Made by a program: the position numbers and the translations under genes
The notes under the pieces: model-generated
What the model was told of the DNA's origin: nothing
Databases searched by the model: none
Seen by the model: the letters and a program-made list of their open reading frames with translations, nothing else
Shown: positions 12,055 to 38,062 of the stretch, one piece after another
Position numbering within the stretch: position 1 is the first letter of the stretch
Layout: every line of letters begins with the position of its first letter
Source: a virus
Lineage: Duplodnaviria; Caudoviricetes
Length of the DNA stretch: 38,062 nt
Virus record (IMG/VR): IMGVR_UViG_3300020044_003096
Location: 1 to 38,062 of that record
Reading direction: 5' to 3' (one strand)

Positions 12055-12083
12055 TTGACTTTCTATAAACTACACCCTATATA
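12055..12083 (+). promoter_or_regulatory. promoter upstream of SSB gene
   Basis: TTGACT-17 bp-TATATA with CTACACCC before the -10. Confidence 0.7.
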
Positions 12084-21819: not shown

Positions 21820-22269
21820 ATGGGTCCAACTATTGAACTTGCCTATCAACTTCGTATTTGTCTAGCTACTGCTTTCTCTCTTTACCTAAAGACACATAAC
21901 TATCATTGGAATGTAACTGGTCCTAACTTCAGTGAATATCACAAGTTCTTTGGTGAAGTGTATCAGGAGGTGTGGGAAAGTGTAGATGACTATGCTGAAC
22001 ATATTCGAACTCTGAATGAGTTTCCTCTTGGCAGTCTTGCTGAGTTTGCTCGTAATTCAGCTATCCTAGAAGCTACAGACAATATCCCTGCCTATGCTAT
22101 GTTCAAGCAACTTGAGGATGACAATCGTATTCTTCTTGAAGAACTAAGTAAAGCACATGATCTTGCTGTAGAAGCTGGAGCTTATGGTATTACTAACTTC
22201 CTTGAAGGACAGATTGACTACCATAATACTCTTGGGTGGAAGCTCAAAGCCTTCACTCCTCTGATGTAA
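21820..22269 (+). CDS. dps: Dps (DNA-binding ferritin-like protein)
   Basis: LYLKTHNYHWNVTGPNF.EYHKFF.E.Y.E....VDDYAEHIRTL ferroxidase signature. Confidence 0.92.
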   Translation: MGPTIELAYQLRICLATAFSLYLKTHNYHWNVTGPNFSEYHKFFGEVYQEVWESVDDYAEHIRTLNEFPLGSLAEFARNSAILEATDNIPAYAMFKQLEDDNRILLEELSKAHDLAVEAGAYGITNFLEGQIDYHNTLGWKLKAFTPLM

Positions 22270-22281
22270 AAATTTAGACAT

Positions 22282-22329
22282 AAAAAGACCCCGTAAGTTC
22301 CAGTCAAGGAGCCTACGGGGTTTTCTTTT
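22282..22329. terminator. bidirectional rho-independent terminator between the two arms
   Basis: AAAAAG-ACCCCGTA...TACGGGGT-TTTCTTTT between convergent genes. Confidence 0.85.
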
Positions 22330-22331
22330 AT

Positions 22332-22565
22332 CTACTCTTTTGACTTGTATAAGTCTAGGATGTCTCTTTTAATCTCTTTGACATCATCTTTCAGTTCTTT
22401 CCAAACTGTCCGATCTTCTTCTCTGCGTTTATCTCGCGCTTCAATCTCTTGTTGCAACATAGCAATTTGCTTCTGATTTGTCAGGACAGTCCTAACTAAC
22501 CAAGTTACAGCTCCGAAGAACAAAGAGATAATTCCTGCATATATTTGATTGACATATTCAGACAC
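22332..22565 (-). CDS. membrane protein with coiled coil (lysis cassette; holin- or spanin-like)
   Basis: One TM segment plus coiled coil, next to endolysin. Confidence 0.6.
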   Translation of the reverse strand: MSEYVNQIYAGIISLFFGAVTWLVRTVLTNQKQIAMLQQEIEARDKRREEDRTVWKELKDDVKEIKRDILDLYKSKE

Positions 22566-22893
22566 GTTTGAAAAGCCCTCTTAACCATCTTGAGATTTCA
22601 TTAGGGCTTGGTAGCAACCAGCCTAAAACTAATAAGACGATCATCCAGATTGGTGTTTGCTGGATATTGACTTGATCGACTTTACTCGCCTCTAGGCTAG
22701 AGACTTTATTAACAATGTCCCTCCCTGCCGTAGAGGTTTCTTGACTAGCTACTACTTGTTGTGTAATGTCTTTACCGATATTAGCGCTAACTGAAGGTCC
22801 ACCACTACCACCAAGAACAGCCTTAGTCAAGACACTGGCTGGACTACAAGCACTCATTACAAAGAAAAGACAGATTAGGATAATTCTAAACAC
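22558..22893 (-). CDS. lipoprotein with C-terminal TM (candidate unimolecular spanin)
   Basis: Lipobox MSAC after hydrophobic leader; C-terminal WMIVLLVLGWLLP. Confidence 0.6.
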   Translation of the reverse strand: MFRIILICLFFVMSACSPASVLTKAVLGGSGGPSVSANIGKDITQQVVASQETSTAGRDIVNKVSSLEASKVDQVNIQQTPIWMIVLLVLGWLLPSPNEISRWLRGLFKRV

Positions 22894-23080
22894 CTGTTTT
22901 CCCCTTGAACAAATCTGTTTGTGTGGCTATAGTCTGTAGGCCAAATGCAGCTAAAATAAAAGCCATATAGGGCCACACCAGTATATCTAAGATAGCCTCA
23001 TTCTCTACAAAAGAGGACAAATAGATAATGTGCAACCACATACCAAAGGCAAGTTCTCTTTTATAGGACTTAGCTAACAT
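22886..23080 (-). CDS. putative holin
   Basis: 64 aa, two hydrophobic segments, directly after endolysin. Confidence 0.55.
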   Translation of the reverse strand: MLAKSYKRELAFGMWLHIIYLSSFVENEAILDILVWPYMAFILAAFGLQTIATQTDLFKGKTGV

Positions 23081-23568
23081 TACTTAATCATCCCTTTTGC
23101 TGTTACTTGTAGACCAACAATACGAATAGTCCAACCACGACCAAATCTGATCCAAGTATCCAGAGACTTCATAAATTGCAGACGTTGTTGTGTAGTTTTA
23201 TTAACTACGTCTTGGGGGTTTGCTTTCTTTACAGCAGCTAGGGTAGCTGGACCCATTACCCCATCATCAGTGACCCCTACAGAGCGTTGTAGCCACTTTA
23301 CAGACTGCTTGTTACCAGAGTTGATAGCAGCATCAAAGACTACAAGATCAACACCAGAAGGCAACTCATCACCTTTGATGACGCTCCAATAGTCTTTCTT
23401 GTAAATGTCAATTGCTTGTTGTTTAGTCAAGGTCTTGATGTTTACCTTGGGATATGCTCGTTTAGAGATACCCCAGTTAGTTTCACCACCGGGATCAAGA
23501 GGATCATTTACATAACCCCCCTCTGATCCTAGTGCATGATTGATGATTGTTTGCCAATTCTCTTTCAT
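23080..23568 (-). CDS. endolysin, glycoside hydrolase family 108 with peptidoglycan-binding domain
   Basis: EGGYVNDPLDPGGETNWGIS, FDAAINSG, DDGVMGPATL, FGRGW..R. Confidence 0.93.
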   Translation of the reverse strand: MKENWQTIINHALGSEGGYVNDPLDPGGETNWGISKRAYPKVNIKTLTKQQAIDIYKKDYWSVIKGDELPSGVDLVVFDAAINSGNKQSVKWLQRSVGVTDDGVMGPATLAAVKKANPQDVVNKTTQQRLQFMKSLDTWIRFGRGWTIRIVGLQVTAKGMIK

Positions 23569-23570
23569 GA

Positions 23571-23987
23571 TTACACCGCTACAGTAACAGCTTGTTCAAA
23601 CAAGGTATCCATTTGTTCTGGGGTATAACCAAGAAGCCAACCAAGTTCATCCATAGTAGGACTTGTTCGTTGCCACTCTACAGAGTTTTTGATTGCTTCC
23701 CGCATAGCCCAAGGAGTTGTAGGATCATCGGCAATAGCATCAAGAGATTCGCAAACAGTTTCACCAAGAGTAATACGACCTTGTAAACGAGAGCATTTCA
23801 TTGATTGTCGTTTTAATATTAAAAGTCCTTCAGGGGATTGATCAGATTCTACAAAAGGGGTTATATCACCCTCTGAAACCAAACTACCCCACTCTGGACT
23901 TTCATTATCAAAGATGACAATATAATTATCAAAAATTTGAGCTAATACACTACTATTTGTATCTCGCCACTCTAACCTATAACTCAT
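23571..23987 (-). CDS. tail fibre-associated or chaperone-like protein
   Basis: EWQRTSP.M..L...LG.TPEQMD.LF motif; follows tail protein. Confidence 0.6.
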   Translation of the reverse strand: MSYRLEWRDTNSSVLAQIFDNYIVIFDNESPEWGSLVSEGDITPFVESDQSPEGLLILKRQSMKCSRLQGRITLGETVCESLDAIADDPTTPWAMREAIKNSVEWQRTSPTMDELGWLLGYTPEQMDTLFEQAVTVAV

Positions 23988-24508
23988 GTCATCACCGCAG
24001 AACGGTTATCAAAACTGTATTTCAAGAGACTTACAGTCATTGTTCCAGTAGCACCGCCAGAAGTCCCTGTTCCGGTGCAATCTACCGCCAAACAATCCCC
24101 CGCAGCTAATGTAACATCTAAAGTAGTGTTTGTTTGACTAGTTGTATATGTCTGAACCACAGAAGCATTTTTGTAAACCCTTACTTCCCCTGCTGTCCCA
24201 GTTTGATTACAAGTGAGTGTTATCCTAACTGTGCAACCGACTAGTGCAGTGAAAACAGAGGGAAGGATTTTCTGAACAGCTTTTGTAAGACTGGAACTAC
24301 TTGCAGATTCATTTCCAAAAGGCAGACAGTTTCTTTGAATAACTGAGCCTGCTACTGGCCCATACATAGCCGCCCCATATACCCTAGGCGCACCAGAAGC
24401 CCCCTCTGCCATAGCAATAGGGTTATCTCGCAGTTTAGTCATCAAATCGGCAGTAATCGGACTATCTGGATCAACTTCAGTATTGTTAATAGTAATATAA
24501 CTTGTCAT
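23984..24508 (-). CDS. minor tail / tail fibre protein
   Basis: EVDPDSPITADLMTKLRDNPIAMAEGASGAP N-terminus; beta-rich C-terminus. Confidence 0.7.
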   Translation of the reverse strand: MTSYITINNTEVDPDSPITADLMTKLRDNPIAMAEGASGAPRVYGAAMYGPVAGSVIQRNCLPFGNESASSSSLTKAVQKILPSVFTALVGCTVRITLTCNQTGTAGEVRVYKNASVVQTYTTSQTNTTLDVTLAAGDCLAVDCTGTGTSGGATGTMTVSLLKYSFDNRSAVMT

Positions 24509-24522
24509 ATTGTCGGGTATCC

Positions 24523-26322
24523 TTAAATTACTACATATGGGCCAGTATTATCGCTAGCGAACACTAAGGTTCCACCATTAACAATATAACCACCTTTTGA
24601 TTTCTCTAGGGCTGTTGCAGACCCATAGTTGTTAGCTGTGTTAGCCATAACCCTTGCAAACCTACCAGCATAGTCATATGCTTGTGCAGTTACTTCTACC
24701 TCATGTCCGAACTTGGATTCAGTCAGTTTGATAACTTGTAGGGTTGTAGCTACAGGATTGCCTGTCTCATCAGTCACAGCACGGCTAGACACTTCAACAA
24801 CATCAGCTAGACCAATAGACCTATCTTTGGCATCAAGGGTAATGCTATAAGTCTTAGGTGCAGTATTAAACCTGTTAAGAAGTCTAATAGATAGAAGACC
24901 TACAATAGAGTCAGCACCCATATTGAGCCAACGACAAAAGACCTCTCTTACACGAGTATCCCCATAAGCCTTCTTACTTTCTGATTCACTATCAATAGTG
25001 ACTGTAAGACGATCATAGTTTTCTTTAGCTGATACATCTTTGGTAGGATCAGTCTGAACACTATAGAAGTGGATTTGAGTTAGACGATACTGATCAAGGT
25101 CTTCTTGTTCAATTTCCTTGATATTATTTCTGTCAGACAAAGGATAAGCAGTGTCATTGAACAAAGGTCTATTACATTTCAAACCAATTTTCTGATTGAC
25201 ATCATCCCACCAAATGCTTACACCAAGAACTGCAAGTTCCCCTACAAGTTGGTTTACACCAATAGGTTTAGTGATGATAGTATCAAGATAGACTGAACTC
25301 ATCCAATCTGTAATCTCTGCTGCCCAAGTAGCACTGTCGATGTAAGAACTATCAATGTTAGCAAAGTTGATGAACAAATCTTTGATTACATCATCAATAC
25401 GAGCATGGTTATATGCAAGTGCTTGCTGGAAGCTGTCTCCTGCGCTGTGAGTGGCTGCTACAGTATTTGATATACCTCGACCAGTCAAAGTCACTACATC
25501 ACCTGAGCGAGTGAATGTGACGATCTCAGAGCCTATTGTAGCATAGCCACTCGTAGCATATTCTGAGCCAACAGAAGCAGGGCTAAGAGTAAAGGAAGTA
25601 TCTGTAGCAGTCATATCAAGAGTAAGGGTGCCACGAGAAGCCTTAGGTGCTACAGCTTTCTTGTTGTCAGCCAGAGCAAGAATGTCTTTGGCTTCAAAGG
25701 TAACATTACCGTTACTGTCAGGGCCAGTCATGTTCGTAATGATATAATTACGAGTTCTGGTATTGACAATCGATCCACCTTCAATGTATCCATCAATGAT
25801 ACGAAGAGGACGACCAGCATAGTAAGGATTACGAGAACGTAGTTTGGAGAAGAATGAACCACGATCTTTAGGATCATACCCACCTTCATCAGTCTGTGCT
25901 GTTCCTGCAAGACGTTGTGCTTGATACTTGTCAGCATACACATCATTAGAAGGGAAATCTACCAAGTCAACCTTTACTGTAGCCCTACGACCAAAAGCAC
26001 TAAGGCTTTCATCAGAACCAGCAATGTTGACTGTGGAAGAGATAGCAGAGATGTTAGTAAGAACAGGGAAGTATGTTCCAATACCAAGAGGAAAGTTTAC
26101 ACGGGGTCCAGCAAACCTATATGTCTTGGTATTGATTGTTGTTGTAGTATCTAGTGTGTTACCATCATAAGCAGATTTGTATTGACAGGTGGCAAAAGTA
26201 TTAAAGCACTTACGCACACCTGTCGTGCCAAGAACGGCAAGGCAAGGAGATGTTCCATAAGTGCGAGTGCAATAATCAAGATCAATTTCTACGATCTGGA
26301 TCGGCTCTCTGTTATTGGACAT
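24523..26322 (-). CDS. tail tip / baseplate hub protein
   Basis: 599 aa with N-terminal Cys cluster; second gene after tape measure. Confidence 0.75.
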   Translation of the reverse strand: MSNNREPIQIVEIDLDYCTRTYGTSPCLAVLGTTGVRKCFNTFATCQYKSAYDGNTLDTTTTINTKTYRFAGPRVNFPLGIGTYFPVLTNISAISSTVNIAGSDESLSAFGRRATVKVDLVDFPSNDVYADKYQAQRLAGTAQTDEGGYDPKDRGSFFSKLRSRNPYYAGRPLRIIDGYIEGGSIVNTRTRNYIITNMTGPDSNGNVTFEAKDILALADNKKAVAPKASRGTLTLDMTATDTSFTLSPASVGSEYATSGYATIGSEIVTFTRSGDVVTLTGRGISNTVAATHSAGDSFQQALAYNHARIDDVIKDLFINFANIDSSYIDSATWAAEITDWMSSVYLDTIITKPIGVNQLVGELAVLGVSIWWDDVNQKIGLKCNRPLFNDTAYPLSDRNNIKEIEQEDLDQYRLTQIHFYSVQTDPTKDVSAKENYDRLTVTIDSESESKKAYGDTRVREVFCRWLNMGADSIVGLLSIRLLNRFNTAPKTYSITLDAKDRSIGLADVVEVSSRAVTDETGNPVATTLQVIKLTESKFGHEVEVTAQAYDYAGRFARVMANTANNYGSATALEKSKGGYIVNGGTLVFASDNTGPYVVI

Positions 26323-27103
26323 ACGCCTCGACCTCCATTGTCACATCAACCCAATTACCAGTTTCAGTAAAAGTAGGTCTCATTTCTGCATTAGGTTTAC
26401 GCCAGCAATAGCCAACGTCTTGAGTAAAAATACTTGGACCAGAAGCCCAAATGAAAGCATGACCACCATTATACCAAGCCTTAAAGGGCTGTAGATCAGC
26501 TTCAGCAAAAGACCTAGAAAACGACACAAGTCCAATAGAAGTTTCTGCACCTTGACGAAGGATACGGTTTCCAAGGAATTGCCCTCCAAGGCTCTTAGAT
26601 TGTAGCAGTTCAACTTTCTGTGCTTGCCAGATAGGAGTATATCCGGGTCTTACACCACCGGGAAGAACAAGCCTTTGTCCAATAGAGATAATCCCAATAT
26701 AAGGAATTGTAGAACCAGTAATGTAAACTCTCCAATATCTAGCAGATACAGAAGTGATAATTCCAAGGATAGGAGTATCATCTGTAGGAACAACGGTAAG
26801 GGTGTCATTCCAAGTAGAATTGTCTGTAGAATATTGAAGAATGATGGTAGAGCCACTTGACCCTAGATTGTGAGCAACAATAGAAAAACTGTCTACTGTC
26901 TTTGCACTACCAGCATCTACCTTAGACCATGCAGGTAATGCTGTAGGCATCCAATAATCAAAGGTAGTCTCTGTCCCAACATTAGTTGCAACTGTTGTAG
27001 TGTCTGTAGTAGAGGCTGTAATAGTTCCCTGAGACATTAAGTTATCCCAGAGAACCATTGGCAAGGTATCATTAGAAGTTGGTGTCCCTTGAATATAGAT
27101 CAT
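26312..27103 (-). CDS. distal tail protein with galactose-binding/discoidin-like domain
   Basis: LQYSTDNSTW, SARYWRVYI; directly after tape measure. Confidence 0.7.
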   Translation of the reverse strand: MIYIQGTPTSNDTLPMVLWDNLMSQGTITASTTDTTTVATNVGTETTFDYWMPTALPAWSKVDAGSAKTVDSFSIVAHNLGSSGSTIILQYSTDNSTWNDTLTVVPTDDTPILGIITSVSARYWRVYITGSTIPYIGIISIGQRLVLPGGVRPGYTPIWQAQKVELLQSKSLGGQFLGNRILRQGAETSIGLVSFSRSFAEADLQPFKAWYNGGHAFIWASGPSIFTQDVGYCWRKPNAEMRPTFTETGNWVDVTMEVEAYVQ

Positions 27104-29418
27104 CGTTGCACCATAAATACCATTCCGCGATTGTTGTTTTCTTTGTAGAGACTATCAAAGAGGGTGGAGAGTTGTTCACCAGTAAAGATGTCAGTAGGTT
27201 TCATACCTTGGATCATTACTGTAGTAGGGGCAGCACTCTCAGAAGGTATCTTAGAAGTCCCTACAGAACCACTTGAACCACCACCTCCACTAACAGAGCC
27301 ACCACCAGATTTAATTGCAGCCACAGCGCTCAAACCAGAAGCAAGAGCGGAAGCAGCCATACCAAACCTAGCCCAAGGACGACCAATCAAAGACGGATCA
27401 GCAAGAACTTGAGTATAAGCAAGGTATGCGTTAATGAGACCTTGTGCAGCACTGAACACACGAGCAGCTTTAGCTGTCTTATCACCACCAGCTTTAGTTA
27501 CATCAGCCAATCCACCAAAGAAGGTAGAAGCATCCCCTAGACGCTGATCTTGACGACTACGTTCAATTTTATTAAGAGACTCTTGGTGCATCTGTGTAAG
27601 GTCAAGTTCCATCTGATTATACTCTTGAAGAGTAATCAGTTTTTTGTCTAGTGCAGATTTAAGCAAATCTTCTCTTTGACTGAAAGCAATATTTTCTTCT
27701 TCGATCAAATAGGCATTGACTTTCTTAGTCTCACCAAGATACTCATAAAGAGCTTTAAGGCGGTTTTCAACAGTTTCCTCAGAGGGGCCTTTACTACCAA
27801 GTTTTTTATCTTTTTTGGTCTCAGGGGGTTCATAGTAGGTTCTATTATTTGCAAAATCTGCAAAAGTAGCAGCACCTTTTATGTAGTTAGGGCTTCTAGG
27901 ATCATAGATTTCCCCACCATGTTCTGCTTTACCATTACCCAAAGCCATGATACCACGAGCAGTAGAGAGGGATACCCCGAGAGATTTAGCAAGAGCCTCT
28001 GCTTGATCTGCGGCAGCTTTAATGCCAGCAGCAATATCGAGTTTTGCTAGTTTTTCGCCCTCAATACGAGATTTGCCGTAGTATTCATAGTTTTTAGCAA
28101 GATAAGCTTCTTGCTCTTTAATAGAACGAAGTTCAGCTTGTTTATCCCTGACAGCAGCCTTATTCAATCCACCTGCAACAGATAGCCCACCATTAAGCAT
28201 AAATTGAGCTTCTTTTTGTGCATTTAGAGTATCTTTTTCATAACCAAGATCAGCTAGATACTCTTTCCTTTTTCTGGAGATTTCATCTAACTTTCTCATA
28301 GATTCGATTTTAGAAGCTTCTTCAACAGCATTACGACTTGCAAGTATATTACTTGTTTGTCTTTCTGTTTCAAGACGTGATGCAGAAGTATCTGCAAGCT
28401 CTTTTTGAAGGTTTACAACAGTTTGCAAACCTTGTTGAGAGTTTGCTGTAATTTGTAGATAAGCTAGACCTTGTTCAGAGATTGTAGCACCTGAAGCAAC
28501 TTGCTTTTCAATCTCCGTATTCATTTTGGTGAGGATAGCAAGTCTGTCTTTATCCGTAGTTGCTCGTGCTAGAGCAAGTTCTTGATCTGCCATCATAGAT
28601 GCTTGCTGAGGAGACATCCCAAGATTTCTTTGAAATTCTTTTGTTCGTTCCTGAGTTTGTGACCAGATAGTGCTATTCATTACGTTTGATGTGGAAGTAT
28701 ATAAATCTCTAGTCAGTGATGCAATTTGTGTTCTTGCAGAATCAAATGCTTTTGCAAGACTTACTGTAGCAAGAAGTCTTACTGTCCTGTCTAAGCCACT
28801 TGTAAACTGCCCAAACTCTTCCGTAAGACCACTTGCGCCACTTTGAAGAAGTTTAATTTCTGTCCGTAATTCTGAGATACTTGACTTTAAGTTGTCAGCA
28901 GCTTCTTTGAATTTTTTTGTTTGCAAGTATATGTTAGCTACTGCTGTCCCAATAGCAAGGAAAGCACCAGCAATAGCACCACCAGCACCAAATATACCCA
29001 GAAGCTGGGAACCTTGCTGACCAAGAGCTACAAGTGCGTTAGTTCCGCCTTGAATTTGAACAGCAAAGTCGCCAACTTGATAGCCAACCTGCTGCATCCC
29101 GGCAGAGCCAAACCGTCTAAAAATACCAGTATTTCTTGTTACAACTCGGCCTAAGTTATCTAGCGTCAAACCTTGTGCTTCAAGTCTTGTTCTTAGTGCA
29201 TCAGAAGCTCTTGCAAAGTCCTGTTGACTAATAATACCTTGTTGCATAGCATTTCTAAGAGTTCTCAGAGAATTTGTATGGCTGAGTTGTGCAGCAGAAA
29301 CCCTGTCCAAAGACCCTAACAAATTAAGAGTGCTTTGGCGAAGTGTTTGAGTAGCACTACTAGCGTTGTTAAGTTGGGTAGAATCTACTCGGATAACAAT
29401 GTCAGCTAAGTCAGTCAT
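27100..29418 (-). CDS. tail tape measure protein
   Basis: 772 aa, Ala-rich; MQQVGYQVGDFAVQIQGG...QQGSQL motif. Confidence 0.92.
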   Translation of the reverse strand: MTDLADIVIRVDSTQLNNASSATQTLRQSTLNLLGSLDRVSAAQLSHTNSLRTLRNAMQQGIISQQDFARASDALRTRLEAQGLTLDNLGRVVTRNTGIFRRFGSAGMQQVGYQVGDFAVQIQGGTNALVALGQQGSQLLGIFGAGGAIAGAFLAIGTAVANIYLQTKKFKEAADNLKSSISELRTEIKLLQSGASGLTEEFGQFTSGLDRTVRLLATVSLAKAFDSARTQIASLTRDLYTSTSNVMNSTIWSQTQERTKEFQRNLGMSPQQASMMADQELALARATTDKDRLAILTKMNTEIEKQVASGATISEQGLAYLQITANSQQGLQTVVNLQKELADTSASRLETERQTSNILASRNAVEEASKIESMRKLDEISRKRKEYLADLGYEKDTLNAQKEAQFMLNGGLSVAGGLNKAAVRDKQAELRSIKEQEAYLAKNYEYYGKSRIEGEKLAKLDIAAGIKAAADQAEALAKSLGVSLSTARGIMALGNGKAEHGGEIYDPRSPNYIKGAATFADFANNRTYYEPPETKKDKKLGSKGPSEETVENRLKALYEYLGETKKVNAYLIEEENIAFSQREDLLKSALDKKLITLQEYNQMELDLTQMHQESLNKIERSRQDQRLGDASTFFGGLADVTKAGGDKTAKAARVFSAAQGLINAYLAYTQVLADPSLIGRPWARFGMAASALASGLSAVAAIKSGGGSVSGGGGSSGSVGTSKIPSESAAPTTVMIQGMKPTDIFTGEQLSTLFDSLYKENNNRGMVFMVQR

Positions 29419-29762
29419 TTAATTACCCTCATATATATTCTATCAAGTCTTTTAATTACGTCAACTTCTTGTGGCGTAAGAATGTTATCGGTCGTTACCA
29501 TCCAAGATTGAATATCCTGATAGGTAATCGGATTAGGCCCAGAGAACCCAGAAGTTCTAGCAGAATTGAGCAACAAAAAAGACCCCCAAACATATTCCAT
29601 TAACTCAGGGAAATCTGGTCCCTCAAGTGCTATTGGTCTATGTCCGGTGGCCTTCTCAATTTGCTCTAAATGTTCTCTCTCTGAGATTCCATCCTTGTCT
29701 GGAATACTTAGCTTGAAATCATGTTCAGCATATTCTTCCAGTTCAAGGACTAGGCTTTCGTA
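29415..29762 (-). CDS. tail assembly chaperone C-terminal extension (lambda gpGT-like), reached by -1 frameshift
   Basis: The -1 frame is open from 29762 (YESLVLELEEYAEHDF...) into the 29415-29600 ORF (PNPITYQDIQSW). Confidence 0.75.
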   Translation of the reverse strand, partial: YESLVLELEEYAEHDFKLSIPDKDGISEREHLEQIEKATGHRPIALEGPDFPELMEYVWGSFLLLNSARTSGFSGPNPITYQDIQSWMVTTDNILTPQEVDVIKRLDRIYMRVIK

Positions 29763-30145
29763 AAAGAAGTTGCTTCTTCTACAGCCTCATCAATTTGTGC
29801 TACAATCCAAGGAAAGTCACGGTAAAGCTCAATAGCTTTAGCTACAGAAAACTTAGGGGTTTCTCCACCAAGAAGAATATCCCAATCCTTAGTGGATTTT
29901 GCTTGTAGTTCCAGAGAGGCAGACTCTACATCTTCAGCAGTAAAGGACATACCCTTTTTCTTCTGCGCTTTCTGGATACGTTTATTCGTCTGTTCATGCA
30001 GAGCATCTTTATATACTCGGCTATGAGGAAGATAGACAGTGATAGTCATCTTACTTTTCTTATCACCAAGAGGTTCACCTGTTCCGGGGTGGTTCAGTTT
30101 AACTTCAATAGTGTCAATAGTAGGCTTAAAGTCTAGAAGGTCCAT
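29750..30145 (-). CDS. tail assembly chaperone (gpG-like)
   Basis: Between tail tube and tape measure; LNHPGTGEPL, TKDW, YRDFPWI..QI. Confidence 0.85.
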   Translation of the reverse strand: MDLLDFKPTIDTIEVKLNHPGTGEPLGDKKSKMTITVYLPHSRVYKDALHEQTNKRIQKAQKKKGMSFTAEDVESASLELQAKSTKDWDILLGGETPKFSVAKAIELYRDFPWIVAQIDEAVEEATSFTKA

Positions 30146-30176
30146 TGTCGGGATGTCCTTAGAGGTTATAGAGATG

Positions 30177-30301
30177 ATAGAATATATACAGCAATAGATA
30201 GATATCCTTATAGATAATCAATATCTTTATTGGGATATACAGGGCGGGGGAACCTTAAAGTAATATAGGTGTAGGATGAGCTTTGTCAAGTCTACCTACA
30301 A
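30177..30301. repeat. non-coding AT-rich element, copy 2
   Basis: Direct repeat of 5999-6160 lacking 37 bp; contains a - strand TTGACA-16 bp-TATATT promoter-like sequence. Confidence 0.9.
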
Positions 30302-30320
30302 TCACAAATTGTTACAATAT

Positions 30321-30378
30321 ATGTCGGGAATGTTATCTAAGCGGGACAGGCATCCTACCCGACATAAGCACCTGTCCC
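30321..30378 (-). other. predicted H-type RNA pseudoknot downstream of the tail tube stop codon
   Basis: Stem GGGACAGGUG/UGCCUGUCCC (30378-30369 with 30352-30343); loop AUGUCGGG (30365-30358) complementary to CCCGACAU (30328-30321). Confidence 0.6.
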
Positions 30379-30397
30379 TAGCCCTTTTTTAGAGGGA

Positions 30398-31318
30398 TTA
30401 GGTGGAACGGGTCAACTTTACGTTGGTGTTCTCAGTGGTGTCATACAGAGCTACAAAAGGCAGCGTGATCATACGAGGACCATCAGCAACAGGAACATCA
30501 GCACCATTGATCTTCACACGAGGGAACAACCAAGTATAGTCGCTAGCCCCTGTAGGATCATCTACCGATACTTCAAATGCAGTCTCAGTTTCATTGATGA
30601 AACGGTTGATCAGAGAAGCATCTTCGAAGTAAGCAGTGATAGTCCCTTCAACAACAGCCTTACCATAGGTAAGTTGAGGAGTAGAGCTAGAACCAATCAC
30701 AAATGCAGGATCAAGGGAGTTAGTGATTGTAAAATCAATACCAGAAATGTTAGCAATAGCAGTAAGAGAACCACCAGCATCAGCAATCTTCATGGTGCCA
30801 GAATAAGCATCAAAAGGTTTGTTGCCAGAAGAAGGGGTCTTTGTAGCATCAAATGAGGTGCCAGAAAGCGTCATATCCTTTCCCACCATACCGAATGTGC
30901 CAGTAACCATTTGGTTAGGCTTAATCGAAACAGCAAGGGAGTTTACTGCAATGCCTTTGAAAAGACGGAACTGAGCAATATCCTCAGAGGCTTCTTCTAC
31001 ATGGAATGATTTGATTGTAGTGCCAATCTTCAACACGTTGGTTGAGAAGCTGTTCATAAAGGCGCTTTCCAGAAGTGCATCATAATCGCCCTTACCAAGT
31101 TCAACAACAATGTCACCAGCTACTTTACGGTTGCCATGACGATCTGTGCGAGACATACGATCAGGTTGAATACTGTTACCTTGAACACGATCCTTAGAAA
31201 GGTTAAGGCTATGCGATACATAGGGCAATTGAATGAGGGTAGGGGTAACAGGTGCTACGCCATAAGTAGTTTCAGCTTGGATGGATAGACCAGCACGAGA
31301 GCTTTGACTAAATGCCAT
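30398..31318 (-). CDS. major tail tube protein
   Basis: AETTYG..P, RHGNRKVAGDI, VEGTITAYFED; position and codon bias. Confidence 0.88.
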   Translation of the reverse strand: MAFSQSSRAGLSIQAETTYGVAPVTPTLIQLPYVSHSLNLSKDRVQGNSIQPDRMSRTDRHGNRKVAGDIVVELGKGDYDALLESAFMNSFSTNVLKIGTTIKSFHVEEASEDIAQFRLFKGIAVNSLAVSIKPNQMVTGTFGMVGKDMTLSGTSFDATKTPSSGNKPFDAYSGTMKIADAGGSLTAIANISGIDFTITNSLDPAFVIGSSSTPQLTYGKAVVEGTITAYFEDASLINRFINETETAFEVSVDDPTGASDYTWLFPRVKINGADVPVADGPRMITLPFVALYDTTENTNVKLTRST

Positions 31319-31333
31319 TTTAAGTTTCCTTTG

Positions 31334-31738
31334 TTAGTTATACACAAACCAATTTACATTAACTGGTGTGCAATAGAAGGGGGAGTCAAGGAAACTTGTC
31401 CTGACTTCGGAGAAATCAACTGTGATTGTCAAACCATTATAGGTAATGTCTGTCGTAGAGTTGAATCGGGTAAGGAGGTCGTCAGCAACATCATAACCTG
31501 CACCAGCACCATTAGCTTCTGGCATACAGATTAGAAGCGAATAAATACCCTCATAGCGCTGACTAGGATTTAAGCCACGCACAGCGGGTCTACGAGAAGT
31601 AGGTATGAGGGTAGCCTTAATGTATGGAGTGCCTGCTAGATGCTCGTATGGGACGTTCTGAGGGGCTATTACAGGGATACCTGAGGTGCCTGCAAGATGC
31701 GTGTCAAGACATGCCCTAATATCATTGATAATACTCAT
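31334..31738 (-). CDS. tail terminator protein (DUF4128-like)
   Basis: Position before tail tube; YEGIYSLLIC.P...GAG motif. Confidence 0.75.
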   Translation of the reverse strand: MSIINDIRACLDTHLAGTSGIPVIAPQNVPYEHLAGTPYIKATLIPTSRRPAVRGLNPSQRYEGIYSLLICMPEANGAGAGYDVADDLLTRFNSTTDITYNGLTITVDFSEVRTSFLDSPFYCTPVNVNWFVYN

Positions 31739-32193
31739 GTCATCCCCTTGACTTTAGCTACAGCAGCAGCTAAGTAAATGCTTGCTCTGTTTCTTGCAAC
31801 AGTGTAGATTTTATATCCATCCCTACGCCAATTGGACCCACCATCTTCTACGATCTTAGCATGAGGTGCAGAGTTACCTACAAAGATATGTGAGGCTTCT
31901 TTAGGAATAGCTTCAATTTGATAAACAAGGCCGTTATAAGCTGTTTCTCTGAACAAGTTTACGTCTTGCCCACCTTCACCAATAGAACGGATATTACCAG
32001 TAAACCTACCTGCAATAGATTGTGTTCCAATGCTATGAGACATTACGTAGTCACCAGTATCAACAGGGGACATATCAGTAATATCTTTAGCCATTTCTGT
32101 TAGAAAAGCATCTCTAACACCATCTAATTTTAGTTCAACTCTTTTCAAGATGTCACTAAGATTATTACCTATTGCTCTATTAGCCATAATCAA
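31735..32193 (-). CDS. neck / tail completion protein (HK97 gp10-like)
   Basis: SPVDTGDY..SH, NSAPHA..VE.G. Confidence 0.8.
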   Translation of the reverse strand: MIMANRAIGNNLSDILKRVELKLDGVRDAFLTEMAKDITDMSPVDTGDYVMSHSIGTQSIAGRFTGNIRSIGEGGQDVNLFRETAYNGLVYQIEAIPKEASHIFVGNSAPHAKIVEDGGSNWRRDGYKIYTVARNRASIYLAAAVAKVKGMT

Positions 32194-32552
32194 CCATCCG
32201 TTTTAAGGGCGTAATAGATAATTGTAGTGTTTGACTTAACAACATGAACATGAACTACGTTTACAGTATTACCACCAATAATGATTTGGTCATTGACTTT
32301 AGGGGTAGGGAGTGCTACACCATTTGTTTGGTAGTTAGTCAACAAGACTGTTTTACTATTCTTGACAACAGAGTTTGCAGTTAGCTCAGAAGGAACAGTT
32401 GTAGATGAATACCCATAGGCAGAATAATCTGTATAGGTTGTAGAAGCAACACCAGTAGCACTATTGTAGCTTCCTGTGGCCCTAGACCTAACAGTTACAA
32501 CTGATCCATGATGTTTAATAAAGTAATTAATGGGTGCAGTATTAAATGCCAT
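32190..32552 (-). CDS. head closure / stopper protein
   Basis: GSYNSATG, PKVNDQI; synteny. Confidence 0.7.
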   Translation of the reverse strand: MAFNTAPINYFIKHHGSVVTVRSRATGSYNSATGVASTTYTDYSAYGYSSTTVPSELTANSVVKNSKTVLLTNYQTNGVALPTPKVNDQIIIGGNTVNVVHVHVVKSNTTIIYYALKTDG

Positions 32553-33012
32553 TGAAGTAATCCGGTGTGTCGTTCAATGCACGGGGATTATCAAACTCTT
32601 TAATAGTGATCCTAGGTTGAACTCGATCAGTATCTTGCTCTACAACTAGCATTTCCGATACTCTAATACCACCAGCAGATACGCCCAAAGACTTACCATT
32701 GGTCCGTTTACCTAGATCATTTAGATGATCACTCATAACGATATACTTTGCAGCCATATCACTGTATTTGGTTTCCCCTGCACCTTCAAGTCTGGTATCA
32801 ACCAAACGAGAATACTTAGAGGCAATCATATGGCAGGCCCAAGACCCAGCATAGTAAATGTTGTTATTGGTTTGAGCAAGAGCAAAGACAATCTCTTCAT
32901 CTTGCATAATCTGATCTGTAGTATCAGTATCACCAATCAAAAGACGCACAGAATTGAGACGGCCTGAAGGTGTAGTTGTAACTAAGTCAGAGGGATTATA
33001 ACTCCAAGACAA
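32542..33012 (-). CDS. head-tail adaptor protein
   Basis: VRLLIGDTD....MQDEEI.FAL motif. Confidence 0.8.
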   Translation of the reverse strand: MSWSYNPSDLVTTTPSGRLNSVRLLIGDTDTTDQIMQDEEIVFALAQTNNNIYYAGSWACHMIASKYSRLVDTRLEGAGETKYSDMAAKYIVMSDHLNDLGKRTNGKSLGVSAGGIRVSEMLVVEQDTDRVQPRITIKEFDNPRALNDTPDYFNGI

Positions 33013-33030
33013 AGCCGTCTCCTTTATTAG

Positions 33031-33411
33031 TTATTCAAGATGACCGTAATTAGTTCGCCAAGAACGGATATGACCAACCTGTTTATATTTGATCTTACTG
33101 AATTGACACTTAGGGGTGCCATCTTTAATCTTTGCGTTGATATTCTCAACTAGAATAGTCAATTGTTCAATAGTCAAATCTTCTAGACCATCACCAACAA
33201 TTACTTTCTTTTCAGTCTTAGTTTCCAACTCTTCGTTGTGGTAAATATAACCTGCATCGTAGAGTTGTTTAACTTTCTCAACTGGAATTTCAAGGTCTTT
33301 CCAGCGATATTCTTGCCCTCTCAACCAAAAGGTGTCAGCCGATTGCAAGACTTCAATCTTGATAAACAACTGACGATTTTGGTCAAAGAGGGGAACAATG
33401 TGTCGGGACAT
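33031..33411 (-). CDS. hypothetical protein downstream of major capsid gene
   Basis: Strong RBS AAGGAGGGGG. Confidence 0.75.
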   Translation of the reverse strand: MSRHIVPLFDQNRQLFIKIEVLQSADTFWLRGQEYRWKDLEIPVEKVKQLYDAGYIYHNEELETKTEKKVIVGDGLEDLTIEQLTILVENINAKIKDGTPKCQFSKIKYKQVGHIRSWRTNYGHLE

Positions 33412-33431
33412 AATCCCCCTCCTTTATTTAA

Positions 33432-34439
33432 TTAGGCGATAACCGTTGCAACAAAAGCACCCAGATCGGTCGAAACCACTTTCTGGTCGTAAGCCATGTT
33501 AGCTTCCAACAGTTCAGCAATGCCATCCACACGCAGGAAGTCACCAGTATACGAACGAATGTCGATGCCGTATCCCGAAGCATTGTTCAGTTCGTTCCAA
33601 GTGAAGGTATAACCAGCCGAAGGAACCATCAGACCAGCAGCACGCGGGCGATAATACAGAGCAGCCGACTTACCACCGATGAAAGCGTTGACTTCCGTCA
33701 GACCTTCAGCAGCAGTGTTCTTCACGGTCTCCATAACCAAGAACTCTTCCACACCGAAGATTTCAGCCAGTTTAGCATCCGTAACCAAAGCAGTGTTGGT
33801 AACAGTTGCACCACCGTTCAGACGGTTCAGGATGTCCGGGTGATTAACCAGAACGTCACGAACTTGCTTACCAACAACCATCACGTTCGGCTTGAAGCCA
33901 CCCGATTTCAGTTGCACAGTCTGCATCAACGTGGTAACGTCTTTGATCGGGGTCGAGTTAGTGTAATCCGACCATTGACGAACTTGGTTGGTCGAAGGCG
34001 AACCCGACACACCAGCCCAATCCGTTCCCCAGACCGAAGCCGAGAAGTATTTGGTAGCCCACTTGATCTCACGATCAATCAGCAGTTGGGTCGTCAGCAT
34101 CTGAGCGCCAGCGGCACGGATGTTCAATGCTGCATCTTCGTTAGCCAGAGTTTCGAAGTCGAAGTTCGTAGCTAGCGAGTAAACGTCTGCCGAGTAAGCA
34201 TCAGTCGACAACGACATACCGACCACAGGAGCTTTAGTGCGAGGAGCACGAGCTTGAACCTGACCCGAACGGTTAAAGTCAGCACGGTTATAGATGTAGA
34301 ATTTGTTGGTCTTTTTATCAACCGGAACACGAGGGAAAACTTTATCAGCGATAAAGCCAGTAGCATCCTGAACGAAAGCAACGGTCAGGTTAGTAAGCGG
34401 GGCGTCAATATGGACTGCACCAGAAGTAAGTTGTGCCAT
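33432..34439 (-). CDS. major capsid protein
   Basis: HIDAPLTNL.VAF.Q, FIADKVFP.VPV, PNVMV...V...L.NHP; highly biased codons. Confidence 0.9.
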   Translation of the reverse strand: MAQLTSGAVHIDAPLTNLTVAFVQDATGFIADKVFPRVPVDKKTNKFYIYNRADFNRSGQVQARAPRTKAPVVGMSLSTDAYSADVYSLATNFDFETLANEDAALNIRAAGAQMLTTQLLIDREIKWATKYFSASVWGTDWAGVSGSPSTNQVRQWSDYTNSTPIKDVTTLMQTVQLKSGGFKPNVMVVGKQVRDVLVNHPDILNRLNGGATVTNTALVTDAKLAEIFGVEEFLVMETVKNTAAEGLTEVNAFIGGKSAALYYRPRAAGLMVPSAGYTFTWNELNNASGYGIDIRSYTGDFLRVDGIAELLEANMAYDQKVVSTDLGAFVATVIA

Positions 34440-34474
34440 GTTATTTTATCCTTAATTTATTCTACTAGGTCAGA

Positions 34475-34843
34475 TTAAGCGGGGGTTTGACCACGGTTCA
34501 GTTCAATCGTGATGACCTGACCAGCAGCGCCAGCTTCAAGAGCATAGCCAACGATTACTTTAGTCGAAGCAGCGGTAATTGCTTTACCAGCAGCGTCCAC
34601 AGCGATTGCATCACCACGAGCAACACTACCAGCAGCGCCAACCAGAACAGTCACACGACCGTCGTAAGCGACTTGGACAGCCTTACCAGCGGCAGTAGCA
34701 GCAGCCATAGCAACACCATCAGTGCGCAGACCAGCGGCAGTGTTATCAATCTGACCATCAGCAGCCAAAGAGACGAAGGTGAATTGGCTAAAAGCCGAAC
34801 CCGAAATGTAAGTGCGAGATTGAAGGTTCTCAGTAAATGCCAT
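34475..34843 (-). CDS. capsid decoration / cement protein (DUF2190-like)
   Basis: Ala/Gly-rich, ends VGYALEAGAAGQVITIEL; directly before MCP. Confidence 0.8.
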   Translation of the reverse strand: MAFTENLQSRTYISGSAFSQFTFVSLAADGQIDNTAAGLRTDGVAMAAATAAGKAVQVAYDGRVTVLVGAAGSVARGDAIAVDAAGKAITAASTKVIVGYALEAGAAGQVITIELNRGQTPA

Positions 34844-34855
34844 GATTAAGGCTCC

Positions 34856-35626
34856 TTATTTCTTGTAGGTTTCAAGCAGAAGGGACTTACCTTCAGCAGT
34901 TTTAATGACAGCGGCATAAGCCTTATAAAAGTCTGTCTTTTTATCTTCCTGATACGATTTAACAAGAGTATCAAGTTTCTGTTCGGCTGTAAGCAAGTCA
35001 TTAGCTGCATCAGTTTTACCGACTTCCATGAACAGACCTGCAAAAGCAGCATCCGCAGCACGAAGCAGTTCTTCCAATTCAGCATTGCCTTCAACAGACT
35101 TCAGCAGTTTACCGCGTTGGTCAGCCGTTCCTTTGAAATTAGGCAGAACCTCGTCAGCACGTTTACGGAGTTCTTCAGCTTCTTGTGCCTTCTGGAACTC
35201 TTCTAGTTTTTTAAGGACAGGTGCAGGGATTGCAGATTTAGCAACCATTTCACCACCAAAGTCTACCATCTCAGCAGCTTTCTCAACTTCTTCTTTAGCT
35301 TCAAGAGCCTTAGTAAGACGTTCAACCTCTGCTTTGAGGGTTTCGACCTCTTCAATAGCAACTTCTTCAGCAGACTTAGCCATAGGGGCAGTATCTTGTG
35401 CTTCTTGTTGCATCTCTAGTTGCATTTCAGCGATCTCTTCCTCAGGGGTTTTGATCTCGATTTCAATGCAAACACCCTTTTCGACTTCTTCAATCTCTGG
35501 GGTGGTTTCTTTTTTAGCTTTAGCCATACTTGTATCTCGCTTAAAGAGAGCGACGGTTGCCGACTTATTAGCAGGAGAATCTACCAACGACACTTCGTCT
35601 AATTCTAAATCAAGGAGTTCATTCAT
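34856..35626 (-). CDS. scaffold protein with N-terminal prohead-protease segment
   Basis: LDEVSLVDSPAN at the N-terminus, followed by E/K/A-rich coiled coil. Confidence 0.75.
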   Translation of the reverse strand: MNELLDLELDEVSLVDSPANKSATVALFKRDTSMAKAKKETTPEIEEVEKGVCIEIEIKTPEEEIAEMQLEMQQEAQDTAPMAKSAEEVAIEEVETLKAEVERLTKALEAKEEVEKAAEMVDFGGEMVAKSAIPAPVLKKLEEFQKAQEAEELRKRADEVLPNFKGTADQRGKLLKSVEGNAELEELLRAADAAFAGLFMEVGKTDAANDLLTAEQKLDTLVKSYQEDKKTDFYKAYAAVIKTAEGKSLLLETYKK

Positions 35627-36183
35627 TTGATCTTCTCCCGCTTTGCTTTCCCACCAATTGAGAAGGCTTTAAGTTCACCAGACTTGACTTTATCCCAGAC
35701 TGCATTGTCATAGACTTTGCAAGCAACGATCCAGCCCTCTTTGTCCGATGTAATGCCAAGGGCTTGAGCGATTTCATTCGTCAAGGGAAGGGAGTGAACA
35801 AATTCACCAACCTTACCACCCATGTGCATTTCTTTAGTGATACGAGCAGAAAGCATAAACTCAGTAGCAGCTTTCATTAGTGTATCAGATTTGATTACGT
35901 CGCCCTGAGTATCCACAACAGGAATACCATTCTCAGAGATGACAGAAGCCCAACCCCAGACCATTCGCTGTGAATCATCTGCTTTAAGGATTTGACCTTG
36001 AATTTCCATCTTCTTTACGGAAGAATCTTTTGCTTTAGACCACGCACCTGCAAATGCACGACTTTCAGTCATTCCATCTTCACCCATCATAGAGTTAAAG
36101 ACATTACGAAATACAGTTTGTTGGTGGTCAGAGAGCTTACCTCGAACTGCCTTTGGCAAATCAGCATTAGTTGTGTAGGGCAT
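35623..36183 (-). CDS. ChaB domain fused to XkdF-like prohead serine protease
   Basis: MPY..NADLP.AVR..L..H.Q.VF..VFNS (ChaB-like); RMVWGWASV, DTQGDVI, EMH, GWI, SGELKAFSIGG (XkdF-like). Confidence 0.8.
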   Translation of the reverse strand: MPYTTNADLPKAVRGKLSDHQQTVFRNVFNSMMGEDGMTESRAFAGAWSKAKDSSVKKMEIQGQILKADDSQRMVWGWASVISENGIPVVDTQGDVIKSDTLMKAATEFMLSARITKEMHMGGKVGEFVHSLPLTNEIAQALGITSDKEGWIVACKVYDNAVWDKVKSGELKAFSIGGKAKREKIK

Positions 36184-36913
36184 TATTTTTCACCAAAATA
36201 AGTTGTTGGTTTGAGTAGACCCTAGAGGCATTGTTAGCTACAAGAGCTACTTGATTGTCAATGTCGGTCTTTTCAGGTATTGCACCGGGAACTGGTGGAG
36301 TAGCTACAATGAATTGTTCGTAGATTTCTGTAGCATATACAGTAATGAAACTTGTCCCAAAGAACCTCCAACGAGCATTCAGTTGAGCATTTTCACCTTT
36401 ATTGCATGAAAAATCCCCATAAACACTGTAAGCAGTATAGCCAGCGGGAACTGTGTAGATGGACATTGAGGTATTACCCTGCCCAGCATCAATACGAGCA
36501 ACAACAGTGCCTACAGAACTGTCTACATGAATTTCAATAGTTCCAATATTAGCTGCACTACCATCAAGATATACAGCACTGTTTAGTCGATAATAAGTAT
36601 TTACCGAAGTGACATGAGTTGTCCCATTTAAGGTGATAATCTCACTAATCTGGTTGTAGTTATTATCAAGACCATTAAGAACAACTTGATAAGTGTCAGA
36701 AGAACTTGTGCTAGCAATGTATAGTGTTTTACTGCCACCATTCCATGCAGACCAAGGGTATACGCCACCAACATTCCAAATAGTCTCAGGGACAGTTCCA
36801 GAATCTACAGAGGGATTCTTACCACTAATGAAAACTACACTGCTATCCGATACTTCGCCCTTAGCTATTGCAAAGTAATTATTTTCGTAATGTAGTTTTT
36901 CCCAAGCAGACAT
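36167..36913 (-). CDS. putative virion structural protein
   Basis: Beta-rich, ETIW..GG.YPW, YTVPAGYTAY; in the head gene region. Confidence 0.6.
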   Translation of the reverse strand: MSAWEKLHYENNYFAIAKGEVSDSSVVFISGKNPSVDSGTVPETIWNVGGVYPWSAWNGGSKTLYIASTSSSDTYQVVLNGLDNNYNQISEIITLNGTTHVTSVNTYYRLNSAVYLDGSAANIGTIEIHVDSSVGTVVARIDAGQGNTSMSIYTVPAGYTAYSVYGDFSCNKGENAQLNARWRFFGTSFITVYATEIYEQFIVATPPVPGAIPEKTDIDNQVALVANNASRVYSNQQLILVKNNALHN

Positions 36914-37308
36914 TACATAACCTCAGGTTTAGGGATAAGTCCCATCATTGCAATTGCTTCTTGGACGCCACTATTAGCATAAGCAGTTAATTTGCCTTTA
37001 GAAGCTAAAGGATTTACTGTTTTGTTGTCAGGCAACCAAAAAACAAGTGCTTTTTGACCTTGCTCTGCTAGTGCCATGTCCACAATCCCAGTGGTGTCCC
37101 ATGCGGGGCGAACCAGAGGTTCTTGTGCTGCTACAAGCCATTCAGGACGCACCATGAACGATGTGGCAGCGTAAAGATTGCCTTCTGCATCCTGCCAGTT
37201 GAGACCCTGATAGGTGTTGATCTCTGCCTCGCTTTGACCAATACACATCGCATATTGGTTTGCTGCATTGAGGATCGTTGCCGATGCGGCTGCGGTGATG
37301 CGGATCAT
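36913..37308 (-). CDS. hypothetical protein
   Basis: Coupled to the upstream fibre-like gene; WQDAEGNLYA, RPAWD. Confidence 0.65.
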   Translation of the reverse strand: MIRITAAASATILNAANQYAMCIGQSEAEINTYQGLNWQDAEGNLYAATSFMVRPEWLVAAQEPLVRPAWDTTGIVDMALAEQGQKALVFWLPDNKTVNPLASKGKLTAYANSGVQEAIAMMGLIPKPEVM

Positions 37309-38060: not shown

Positions 38061-38062
38061 AG

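What the first reader, a model, noticed from the sequence alone, without database searches (positions are those of the whole stretch)
24506..33411. CCCGACA motif at the start codons of three late genes, complementary to the loop of the post-tail-tube hairpin
Seen on the late mRNA: AAGGAUA-CCCGACA-AU-AUG (24517-24511, tail fibre gene), GGACAU-CCCGACA-AUG (30152-30146, tail chaperone), AUG-U-CCCGACA (33407-33401, gene after MCP), and a fourth copy at 30328-30322. By eye these are the only copies on that strand of the late arm, and under one would be expected by chance. The hairpin loop at 30365-30356 (AUGUCGGGUA) can pair with all of them, with 9 bp at the tail fibre site. Inference: a post-transcriptional circuit tuning virion protein stoichiometry. 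Either the hairpin loop pairs with and masks several initiation regions, or a phage RNA-binding protein recognises CCCGACA and the hairpin acts as a decoy or switch. I know no described system matching this.
Basis: partly seen in the sequence, partly recalled or inferred. Interest (0 to 1): 0.78.

Follow-up and report, generated by a model that had tools for sequence, protein, structure and literature searches.

The report
Phage tail-gene hairpin targeting start codons
Right after the main tail gene, this bacterial virus and many others, including the laboratory phages L5 and phiCbK, keep an RNA hairpin whose loop is the mirror image of a short tag at the start of the next gene (and, in this virus group, of up to four other genes); loop and nearby tags change together between virus groups, so the loop likely pairs with those starts and would hold their translation down, which nobody has tested.

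Summary
Observation confirmed and far from chance once relatives are used. In a CRP-6-like siphophage group the hairpin after the tail-tube stop displays GUCGGG in 94 of 94 junctions, with CCCGAC downstream in 89 of 94; CCCGAC also marks the starts of the post-capsid gene (55 of 55 close relatives, in the loop of a hairpin hiding the SD), the 174-aa tail gene, a GNAT gene and the SSB leader. The same build sits between tail-tube and tail-chaperone genes in unrelated phages, with loop and target changed together: cluster A mycobacteriophages GGCGGG/CCCGCC (57 of 57), Min1-like actinophages GUCGGG, AUCGGG or UUCGGG with matching SD-adjacent copies, Caulobacter giant phages. This favours RNA-RNA pairing over a protein site. 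Best reading (0.55): loop pairing masks initiation regions, nearby copies acting as pseudoknot decoys; main rival: ColIb-P9-like activating coupling. Weak points: covariation is shown only for local sites, distal sites are patchy, no transcript data. No Rfam family or paper found in my searches; this scan reported the same kind on other DNA (e1-6025091, e1-8235449). New variant of a known kind.

The parts
30398..31318 (-). tail tube (major tail) gene; the element begins at its stop codon
   Evidence: phrog_290; 53% to CRP-6 tail structural protein
30382..30396 (-). small first hairpin directly after the stop codon
   Evidence: fold; a similar hairpin matched by pattern in 49 of 94 junctions
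30343..30378 (-). main hairpin, 14-15 bp stem, many G-U pairs on the mRNA strand
   Evidence: stem covaries in 40 relatives, 13 of 14 pairs with both-side changes
30358..30364 (-). loop UGUCGGG, the antisense seed (core GUCGGG invariant in this group)
30322..30328 (-). proximal CCCGACA copy 14 nt after the stem; predicted H-type pseudoknot partner and decoy
   Evidence: (median 9 nt from stem to first copy)
30262..30289 (-). sigma-70-like promoter (TTGACA, 16 nt, TATATT) in the long spacer; would give a chaperone transcript without the hairpin; present only in a minority of relatives
   Evidence: best site of the late arm, 11 of 12; similar boxes by eye in L002, L003, L083, L088, L123, L133
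30146..30152 (-). CCCGACA between SD and AUG of the tail assembly chaperone gene
   Evidence: 93 of 94 junctions within one change of CCCGAC
29415..30145 (-). tail assembly chaperone G (29750-30145) and its likely -1 frame extension GT
   Evidence: phrog_313, PF23812, sequence
33385..33424 (-). post-capsid hairpin that pairs the SD and start of the next gene and shows CCCGACA in its loop
   Evidence: -22 kcal/mol, z -3.9; 54 of 55 close relatives with at least 6 enclosing pairs; stems differ in sequence
33401..33407 (-). CCCGACA at +5 of the post-capsid gene (codons 2-4); kept in two reading frames
   Evidence: offset 4 in 43 and 5 in 12 of 55; 11 different N-termini among 38
33031..33411 (-). 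post-capsid gene, 126 aa, unknown; predicted small beta domain plus a HeH/SAP/Rho-N-like helical domain (weak)
24511..24517 (-). CCCGACA between SD and AUG of the 174-aa tail-region gene
   Evidence: homologue starts: 4 CCCGAC, 1 CCCGAT, 1 CTCGAC, 1 none of 7
23984..24508 (-). 174-aa tail-region gene, function unassigned

Best explanation
The hairpin just after the tail-tube stop codon displays a G-rich loop (GUCGGG here) that likely base-pairs with CCCGAC tags lying inside the ribosome footprint of the tail-chaperone gene and a few other genes, and would thereby dampen their translation. Shown: the hairpin, the invariant loop, the tags, their position, and joint change of loop and local tags between phage groups. 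Inferred: (1) in read-through mRNA the loop first captures the nearest CCCGAC 2-26 nt after the stem as an H-type pseudoknot, and competes between these decoy copies and the copy at the chaperone SD-AUG spacer, which is often weakened by G-U wobble, giving partial, tunable repression; (2) transcripts that end at or are trimmed back to the hairpin carry a free loop that accumulates with tail-tube mRNA and pairs at long range or in trans with the post-capsid hairpin loop (kissing, which locks the SD away), the 174-aa and GNAT gene starts and, in relatives, the SSB leader; (3) the outcome is a tail-tube-mRNA-dependent brake on chaperone and accessory proteins late in infection.
For: Loop GUCGGG in 94 of 94 junctions picked by protein similarity, against 197 of 940 flank-shuffled controls; stems covary and use G-U pairs, so the structure is on the mRNA strand. 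Loop/target change together: GUCGGG with CCCGAC downstream in 89 of 94, GGCGGG with CCCGCC in 57 of 57 and CCCGAC in 0 of 57; in the Min1-like group the SD-adjacent copy is CCCGAC in 10 of 11 with GUCGGG, in 0 of 10 with AUCGGG (6 YCCGAT), CCCGAA with UUCGGG; phiCbK, BL57, Kikimora AUCGGG with CCCGAT/CCCGAA, BL47 GUCGGG with CCCGAC. Spacer variants are mostly C-to-T, which keeps pairing with G: 29 of 39 and 111 of 113 changes, none at the central G or A. Tags lie between SD and AUG or just after AUG, where a helix is incompatible with 30S binding (established knowledge). Strand bias 31 to 1 at starts; best permutation control 8 of 776. The cluster A loop contains UUGGCG in 55 of 57, the loop motif named for ColIb-P9 pairing in a reference title of PMC4705826.
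Against: The loop never changes within the window's own group, so covariation is shown only for sites next to the hairpin, not for distant ones. Distant tags are patchy: post-capsid gene 4 of 25 in the more distant marine subgroup, GNAT 11 of 23, SSB 7 of 10 and absent in the window itself. No excess of a degenerate tag before start codons in five cluster A genomes. 5 of 10 AUCGGG junctions still carry a CCCGAC copy upstream, and AUCGGG Caulobacter phages have SD-CCCGAC-ATG-like strings elsewhere (starts not verified). Counts are of related sequences; the Min1-like tree suggests only about 2-3 independent changes. 6-7 bp is short for pairing in trans; few hairpins have a terminator U-tract, so a free-loop 3' end is assumed. 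In the Min1-like group the last copy lies 5' of the SD, the geometry of an activating pseudoknot. No expression or structure data.
Confidence: 0.55

Rival explanations
1. Activating long-range translational coupling: loop-tag pairing folds the spacer so that a ribosome terminating at the tail-tube stop is handed to the tagged start (ColIb-P9/pMU720-like), replacing the stop-start overlap that other phages use.
For: The hairpin starts a median 9 nt (Min1-like) or 21 nt (this group) after the stop; the Min1-like tag sits directly 5' of the SD as in ColIb-P9; distant phages whose tube and chaperone genes overlap or abut lack the element, and GNAT genes that overlap their upstream gene lack the tag; spacer copies are the weakened ones, which would ease melting.
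Against: Most tags lie between SD and AUG or after AUG; no inhibitory stem at the chaperone start needs opening (-5.3 kcal/mol, z +1.3); the post-capsid tag is 3 kb upstream and in a loop, so pairing would not open its stem; the SSB leader is on another transcript; absence of tags at overlapped starts also follows from coding constraint.
Confidence: 0.2
2. A phage or host RNA-binding protein reads CCCGAC; the loop only hides the nearest site.
For: Invariant tag in this group, shown in a hairpin loop at the post-capsid gene whose product has a weak HeH/SAP/Rho-N-like match (Z 4-5.5); tag in an early SSB leader far from the hairpin.
Against: Tag changes with the loop across groups; variants are wobble-compatible; the fold match is below the level the tool calls meaningful.
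Confidence: 0.1
3. The local pseudoknot is a 3' barrier or terminator modulator that stabilises tail-tube mRNA; tags at starts are secondary.
For: H-type geometry (stem 12-16 pairs, loop core 6-7 nt, linker median 2-10 nt); hairpins after major tail genes have been read as terminators (PMC4351075 passage).
Against: Does not explain tags held at four other gene starts, in two reading frames, or the SD-AUG copies kept pairable in 57 cluster A junctions.
Confidence: 0.1
4. A double-stranded DNA site (operator or late promoter element), or chance.
For: The loop and the proximal copy form an inverted repeat on DNA; within the window alone recurrence is not significant.
Against: 31 to 1 strand bias at starts; variable spacing; covarying G-U-rich stems around the loop; C-to-T but not G-to-A changes.
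Confidence: 0.05

Closest known systems
ColIb-P9 / IncB pMU720 rep pseudoknot (PMC4705826, passages read)
   Same: A stem-loop's GC-rich loop pairs with a short complement beside a downstream SD, next to a terminating ribosome; the cluster A loop even contains the UUGGCG motif named for that system.
   Different: There one target, pairing activates by opening an inhibitory stem, and an antisense RNA competes; here several copies and several genes, tags mostly inside the ribosome footprint, no antisense RNA or leader peptide found.
3'UTR-derived autoregulatory sRNAs OppZ and CarZ (PMC7398697, abstract and section list read)
   Same: A 3' element of an operon base-pairs with initiation regions of its own transcript to inhibit translation.
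   Different: Those are processed, Hfq-associated sRNAs at operon ends; here an internal intergenic hairpin with a 6-7 nt loop seed and local decoy copies; processing not shown.
Long-range TIR-masking pairs: rpmI-rplT pseudoknot and MS2 Min Jou interaction (first seen as a reference title and an introductory passage in PMC10666635; second recalled)
   Same: A distant segment of the same mRNA masks a start site.
   Different: There the masking strand lies in or before a translated gene and is opened by ribosomes or held by L20; here it is an untranslated loop with multiple targets.
c4 (P1/P7) and CI (P4) phage antisense RNAs (recalled, not read)
   Same: Short loop sequences pairing with several short targets in phage mRNA.
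   Different: They are separately processed immunity RNAs with two-part targets; no Rfam match here.
Intrinsic terminator after the major tail gene (PMC4351075 passage)
   Same: GC-rich hairpin after the tail-tube stop.
   Different: Invariant loop, weak U-tract, complementary tags at starts.

Membership tests
Any Rfam 15 family | match to a covariance model | tested here: not met
   no relevant hit for window 22000-38062 or 18 related loci
ColIb-P9-type activating pseudoknot | loop complementary to a sequence adjacent to the downstream SD | tested here: met
   (5' of SD in Min1-like phages; 3' of SD in this group and cluster A)
ColIb-P9-type activating pseudoknot | target lies in a stem that hides SD and start codon and is opened by pairing | tested here: not met
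   chaperone start is unstructured; the post-capsid tag is in a loop, not the stem
ColIb-P9-type activating pseudoknot | pairing raises translation by reinitiation | not testable with these tools
   needs reporters
ColIb-P9-type activating pseudoknot | YUNR U-turn loop | tested here: inconclusive
   UUGG in 55 of 57 cluster A loops; this group has GUCG, which lacks the pyrimidine; YUNR rule recalled
3'UTR-derived sRNA (OppZ/CarZ type) | seed complementary to initiation regions of the own operon | tested here: met
3'UTR-derived sRNA (OppZ/CarZ type) | discrete processed RNA, RNase E cut, Hfq binding | not testable with these tools
   no RNA holder listed
Intrinsic terminator | hairpin followed by a U-tract | tested here: not met
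   not called by the scan; 14 of 54 distinct hairpins have 5 or more T in the next 10 nt
Recoding pseudoknot (readthrough or frameshift) | open frame continuing past the stop | tested here: not met
   spacers of 64-271 nt in all frames, often with a second stop right behind

The most novel reading that the evidence does not exclude
A widespread, undescribed class of phage mRNA device: the tail-tube 3' hairpin is a built-in multi-target antisense 'counter' whose free loop rises with tail-tube mRNA and, in cis and in trans, throttles assembly chaperones, accessory tail genes and even the early SSB, with local decoy copies setting its strength; shared or re-invented by siphophages of Alphaproteobacteria and Actinobacteria, including L5 and phiCbK.
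Probability: 0.3. Interest if true: 0.88.

Novelty: new variant of a known kind. Interest (0 to 1): 0.72.

Why it matters
How phages set very different protein amounts from one late transcript is mostly ascribed to terminators, RBS strength and frameshifts. The chaperone G:GT ratio is known to be critical for lambda tails (PMC5009743 passage), but what sets chaperone against tube protein is open. A conserved loop-to-start pairing at this junction, present in genetically tractable phages (L5 and cluster A relatives, phiCbK, Min1, CRP-6), makes that directly testable with three-base swaps, and would reclassify hairpins now annotated as terminators. It also matters for recoding or refactoring phage tail operons.

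Tried and rejected
Second antisense copy inside the capsid gene (34003-34009): not conserved even in 100%-identical capsid proteins; TCG is the dominant Ser codon, 1152 of 1462. Another GTCGGG near +540 of capsid genes in relatives was not followed and is absent from the window. RNAalifold on a MAFFT alignment of 40 hairpins gave no consensus because loop size shifts the register; a named structure was counted instead, and slide -1 scores as well as 0 for that reason. Codon or tRNA-reading explanation: tag occurs in two frames and outside coding sequence. Ten distant cultured tail-tube relatives, two Rhizobium phages and an Acinetobacter phage and L454-L465 lack the element; phage 438212 has GTCGGG in a hairpin but no CCCGAC after it. 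Loose pattern scan was mostly chance: 54 hairpin-like hits among 121 loci, about ten real by eye; the UUGGCGGG scan gave real hits only before cluster A-like chaperones. Distant targets in cluster A, Min1-like and Caulobacter genomes: pattern counts inconclusive. Genome-contig scan gave one MAG contig, no host. No RNA holder listed; read laying not used. Post-capsid protein: no PDB sequence hit, no clear fold. Literature searches without a description of this element.
Full report
Setting. The window is an 82%-complete virus record, 41.7% G+C, with replication genes on the + strand and a late operon on the - strand: capsid 33432-34439, a 126-aa unknown, neck genes, tail tube 30398-31318, chaperone 29750-30145 with a GT-type extension, tape measure, tail tip genes, lysis. 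The nearest cultured phage is Roseobacter phage CRP-6 (tube 53%, capsid 57%). The host is not established.

Observation. Within the window this is only suggestive: 1450 of 5000 shuffles of the 23 late start regions give some 7-mer three times.

Conservation in the window's group. 160 loci were fetched by tube or capsid protein similarity, not by motif. Of 94 distinct junctions with a callable chaperone start (window included; truncated and duplicate junctions dropped), 94 have a hairpin enclosing GTCGGG, against 197 of 940 flank-shuffled controls, and 89 have CCCGAC downstream. All 22 further metagenome junctions printed also carry GTCGGG (some duplicate earlier contigs). Only the six loop bases are invariant in 40 aligned hairpins; 13 of 14 stem pairs show both-side changes, covariation 0.48, 0 of 500 shuffles, with the caveat that related sequences inflate this. 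At the chaperone SD-AUG spacer 54 of 94 have CCCGAC and 39 differ by one base, 29 of them C-to-T. At the post-capsid gene 55 of 55 relatives with capsid identity of 75% or more have CCCGAC at +4 or +5, unpaired (median 0.999) while the SD is paired (0.12 unpaired), in two frames and 11 N-terminal peptides among 38 variants; in the more distant marine subgroup only 4 of 25 have it. Homologues of the 174-aa gene: 6 of 7 have the tag or a wobble variant. GNAT gene (not in the window): 11 of 23, missing by eye where the start overlaps the upstream gene. A Gp2.5-like SSB (weak PHROG hits): 7 of 10 relatives have CCCGAC within 75 nt of the start, CRP-6 has CTCGAT, the window has none. Over 11 genomes, 31 of 776 simply called start regions hold CCCGAC (1.17 per kb; 0.115 in coding sequence; reverse complement once); the next of 30 letter permutations has 8, and CCCGAC ranks third of all hexamers seen in 15 or more starts, among SD- and ATG-derived words.

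The same build in unrelated phages. A motif scan led to tube-chaperone junctions of other families. Cluster A mycobacteriophages, L5 included: loop GGCGGG in 57 of 57, CCCGCC downstream in 57, CCCGAC in 0, and an SD-AUG copy that differs from CCCGCC by C-to-T in 111 of 113 changes; L454-L465, 46-48% to L5, lack it and were left out of that count. Min1-like actinophages (24 junctions): last copy before the SD is CCCGAC in 10 of 11 with GUCGGG, in 0 of 10 with AUCGGG (6 YCCGAT, 3 CCCGAA, 1 CCCGTA), CCCGAA with UUCGGG; L323 has GUGUCGG with three CCGACAC; one junction (L390) has a hairpin without target. 5 of the 10 AUCGGG junctions keep a CCCGAC further upstream, and the tree allows only about 2-3 independent changes. 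L324-L353 were left out: in L348-L352 and L336 a different loop is complementary to the SD itself, L351 and L353 show nothing, the rest were not followed. Caulobacter giant phages: AUCGGG with CCCGAT/CCCGAA in phiCbK, BL57, Kikimora; GUCGGG with CCCGAC in BL47 and L242. In a swap test the cluster A loop pairs best with its own linker (-14.0 against -6.8 to -8.6 kcal/mol) and GUCGGG loops worst with it; AUCGGG loops do not prefer their own. Whether these groups share descent or converged is not settled.

Mechanism. Pairing of loop and nearby tag is well supported by covariation; geometry (stem 12-16 pairs, 6-7 bp loop helix, linker median 2-10 nt, 14 nt in the window) fits an H-type pseudoknot (inference). 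Tags sit between SD and AUG, just after AUG, or just before the SD, all inside the 30S footprint; a helix at the first two places should block initiation (established knowledge of sRNA action), hence repression as best reading (0.55), with proximal copies as decoys and a free loop on transcripts ending at the hairpin for distant targets (inferred; U-tracts are weak). The main rival (0.2) is activation by reinitiation as in ColIb-P9, favoured by the short stop-to-stem distance and by absence of the element where genes overlap. A protein reader (0.1) remains for the distant sites, for which no covariation could be shown; pattern counts in cluster A, Min1-like and Caulobacter genomes were inconclusive.

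Known systems and novelty. No Rfam hit. Eight searches found no description; the library lacks most subscription journals, and I did not see the supplements of large candidate-RNA catalogues, which may list it. Papers seen: PMC4705826, PMC10666635, PMC5009743, PMC4351075, PMC3483164 (passages); PMC7398697 (abstract, section list). It works like loop-to-RBS pairing in ColIb-P9 and like OppZ/CarZ feedback, but fails a defining feature of each or cannot be tested for it. Earlier agents of this scan reported the same kind on other genomes; those notes are not evidence, and my reading was recorded before them. Verdict: real, new variant of a known kind, interest 0.72.

Noticed in passing
window 30262-30289 (-) and 12055-12080 (+): Two similar sigma-70-like promoters (TTGAC ... 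TACACC(C)TATAT), one before the chaperone gene inside the late operon, one before the SSB gene; similar boxes in several relatives and before the chaperone of Curvibacter phage P26059A.
   Followed up: partly
window 12117-12626: Likely Gp2.5-like SSB with acidic tail; homologues hit phrog_112 weakly, the window protein does not.
   Followed up: partly
L387:5872-5900 and L391-L453: The first small hairpin after the cluster A tail-tube stop contains CTTGACAGCCACC or variants, which I recall as the reverse of the L5 stoperator (recalled, not checked).
   Followed up: no
L348, L350, L352, L336 after the tail-tube stop: Gut actinophage-like junctions where the hairpin loop is complementary to the SD itself rather than to a CCCGA tag.
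   Followed up: no
L006-L080 after the capsid stop: The marine subgroup replaces the post-capsid hairpin with another conserved structure (CTAA(C/T)GG ... CCCAA, then repeated ACAG(T)A) of unknown role.
   Followed up: no
L007, L009, L014, L020, L025, L031 spacer before the chaperone: One or two copies of a ~26-nt repeat (TTACGCTATG..GTAAAGATCATAA) inserted in the tube-chaperone spacer; GATCAT-rich inserts in L091, L097, L111, L115, L125.
   Followed up: no
Burkholderia phage AH2 holin RBS (PMC3483164 table): CCCGAC between SD and ATG of the holin gene; AH2 itself not fetched.
   Followed up: no
L245:1497-1560 (-): A 41 kcal/mol hairpin with GTCGGG loop followed by CCCGAC and an SD before a 292-aa head-region gene, not a chaperone, in a GC-rich phage.
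   Followed up: partly
window 33031-33411: Post-capsid protein predicted with a C-terminal HeH/SAP/Rho-N-like domain (weak).
   Followed up: partly
window 21820-22269: Ferritin-like (Dps-type) gene at the end of the early arm.
   Followed up: no
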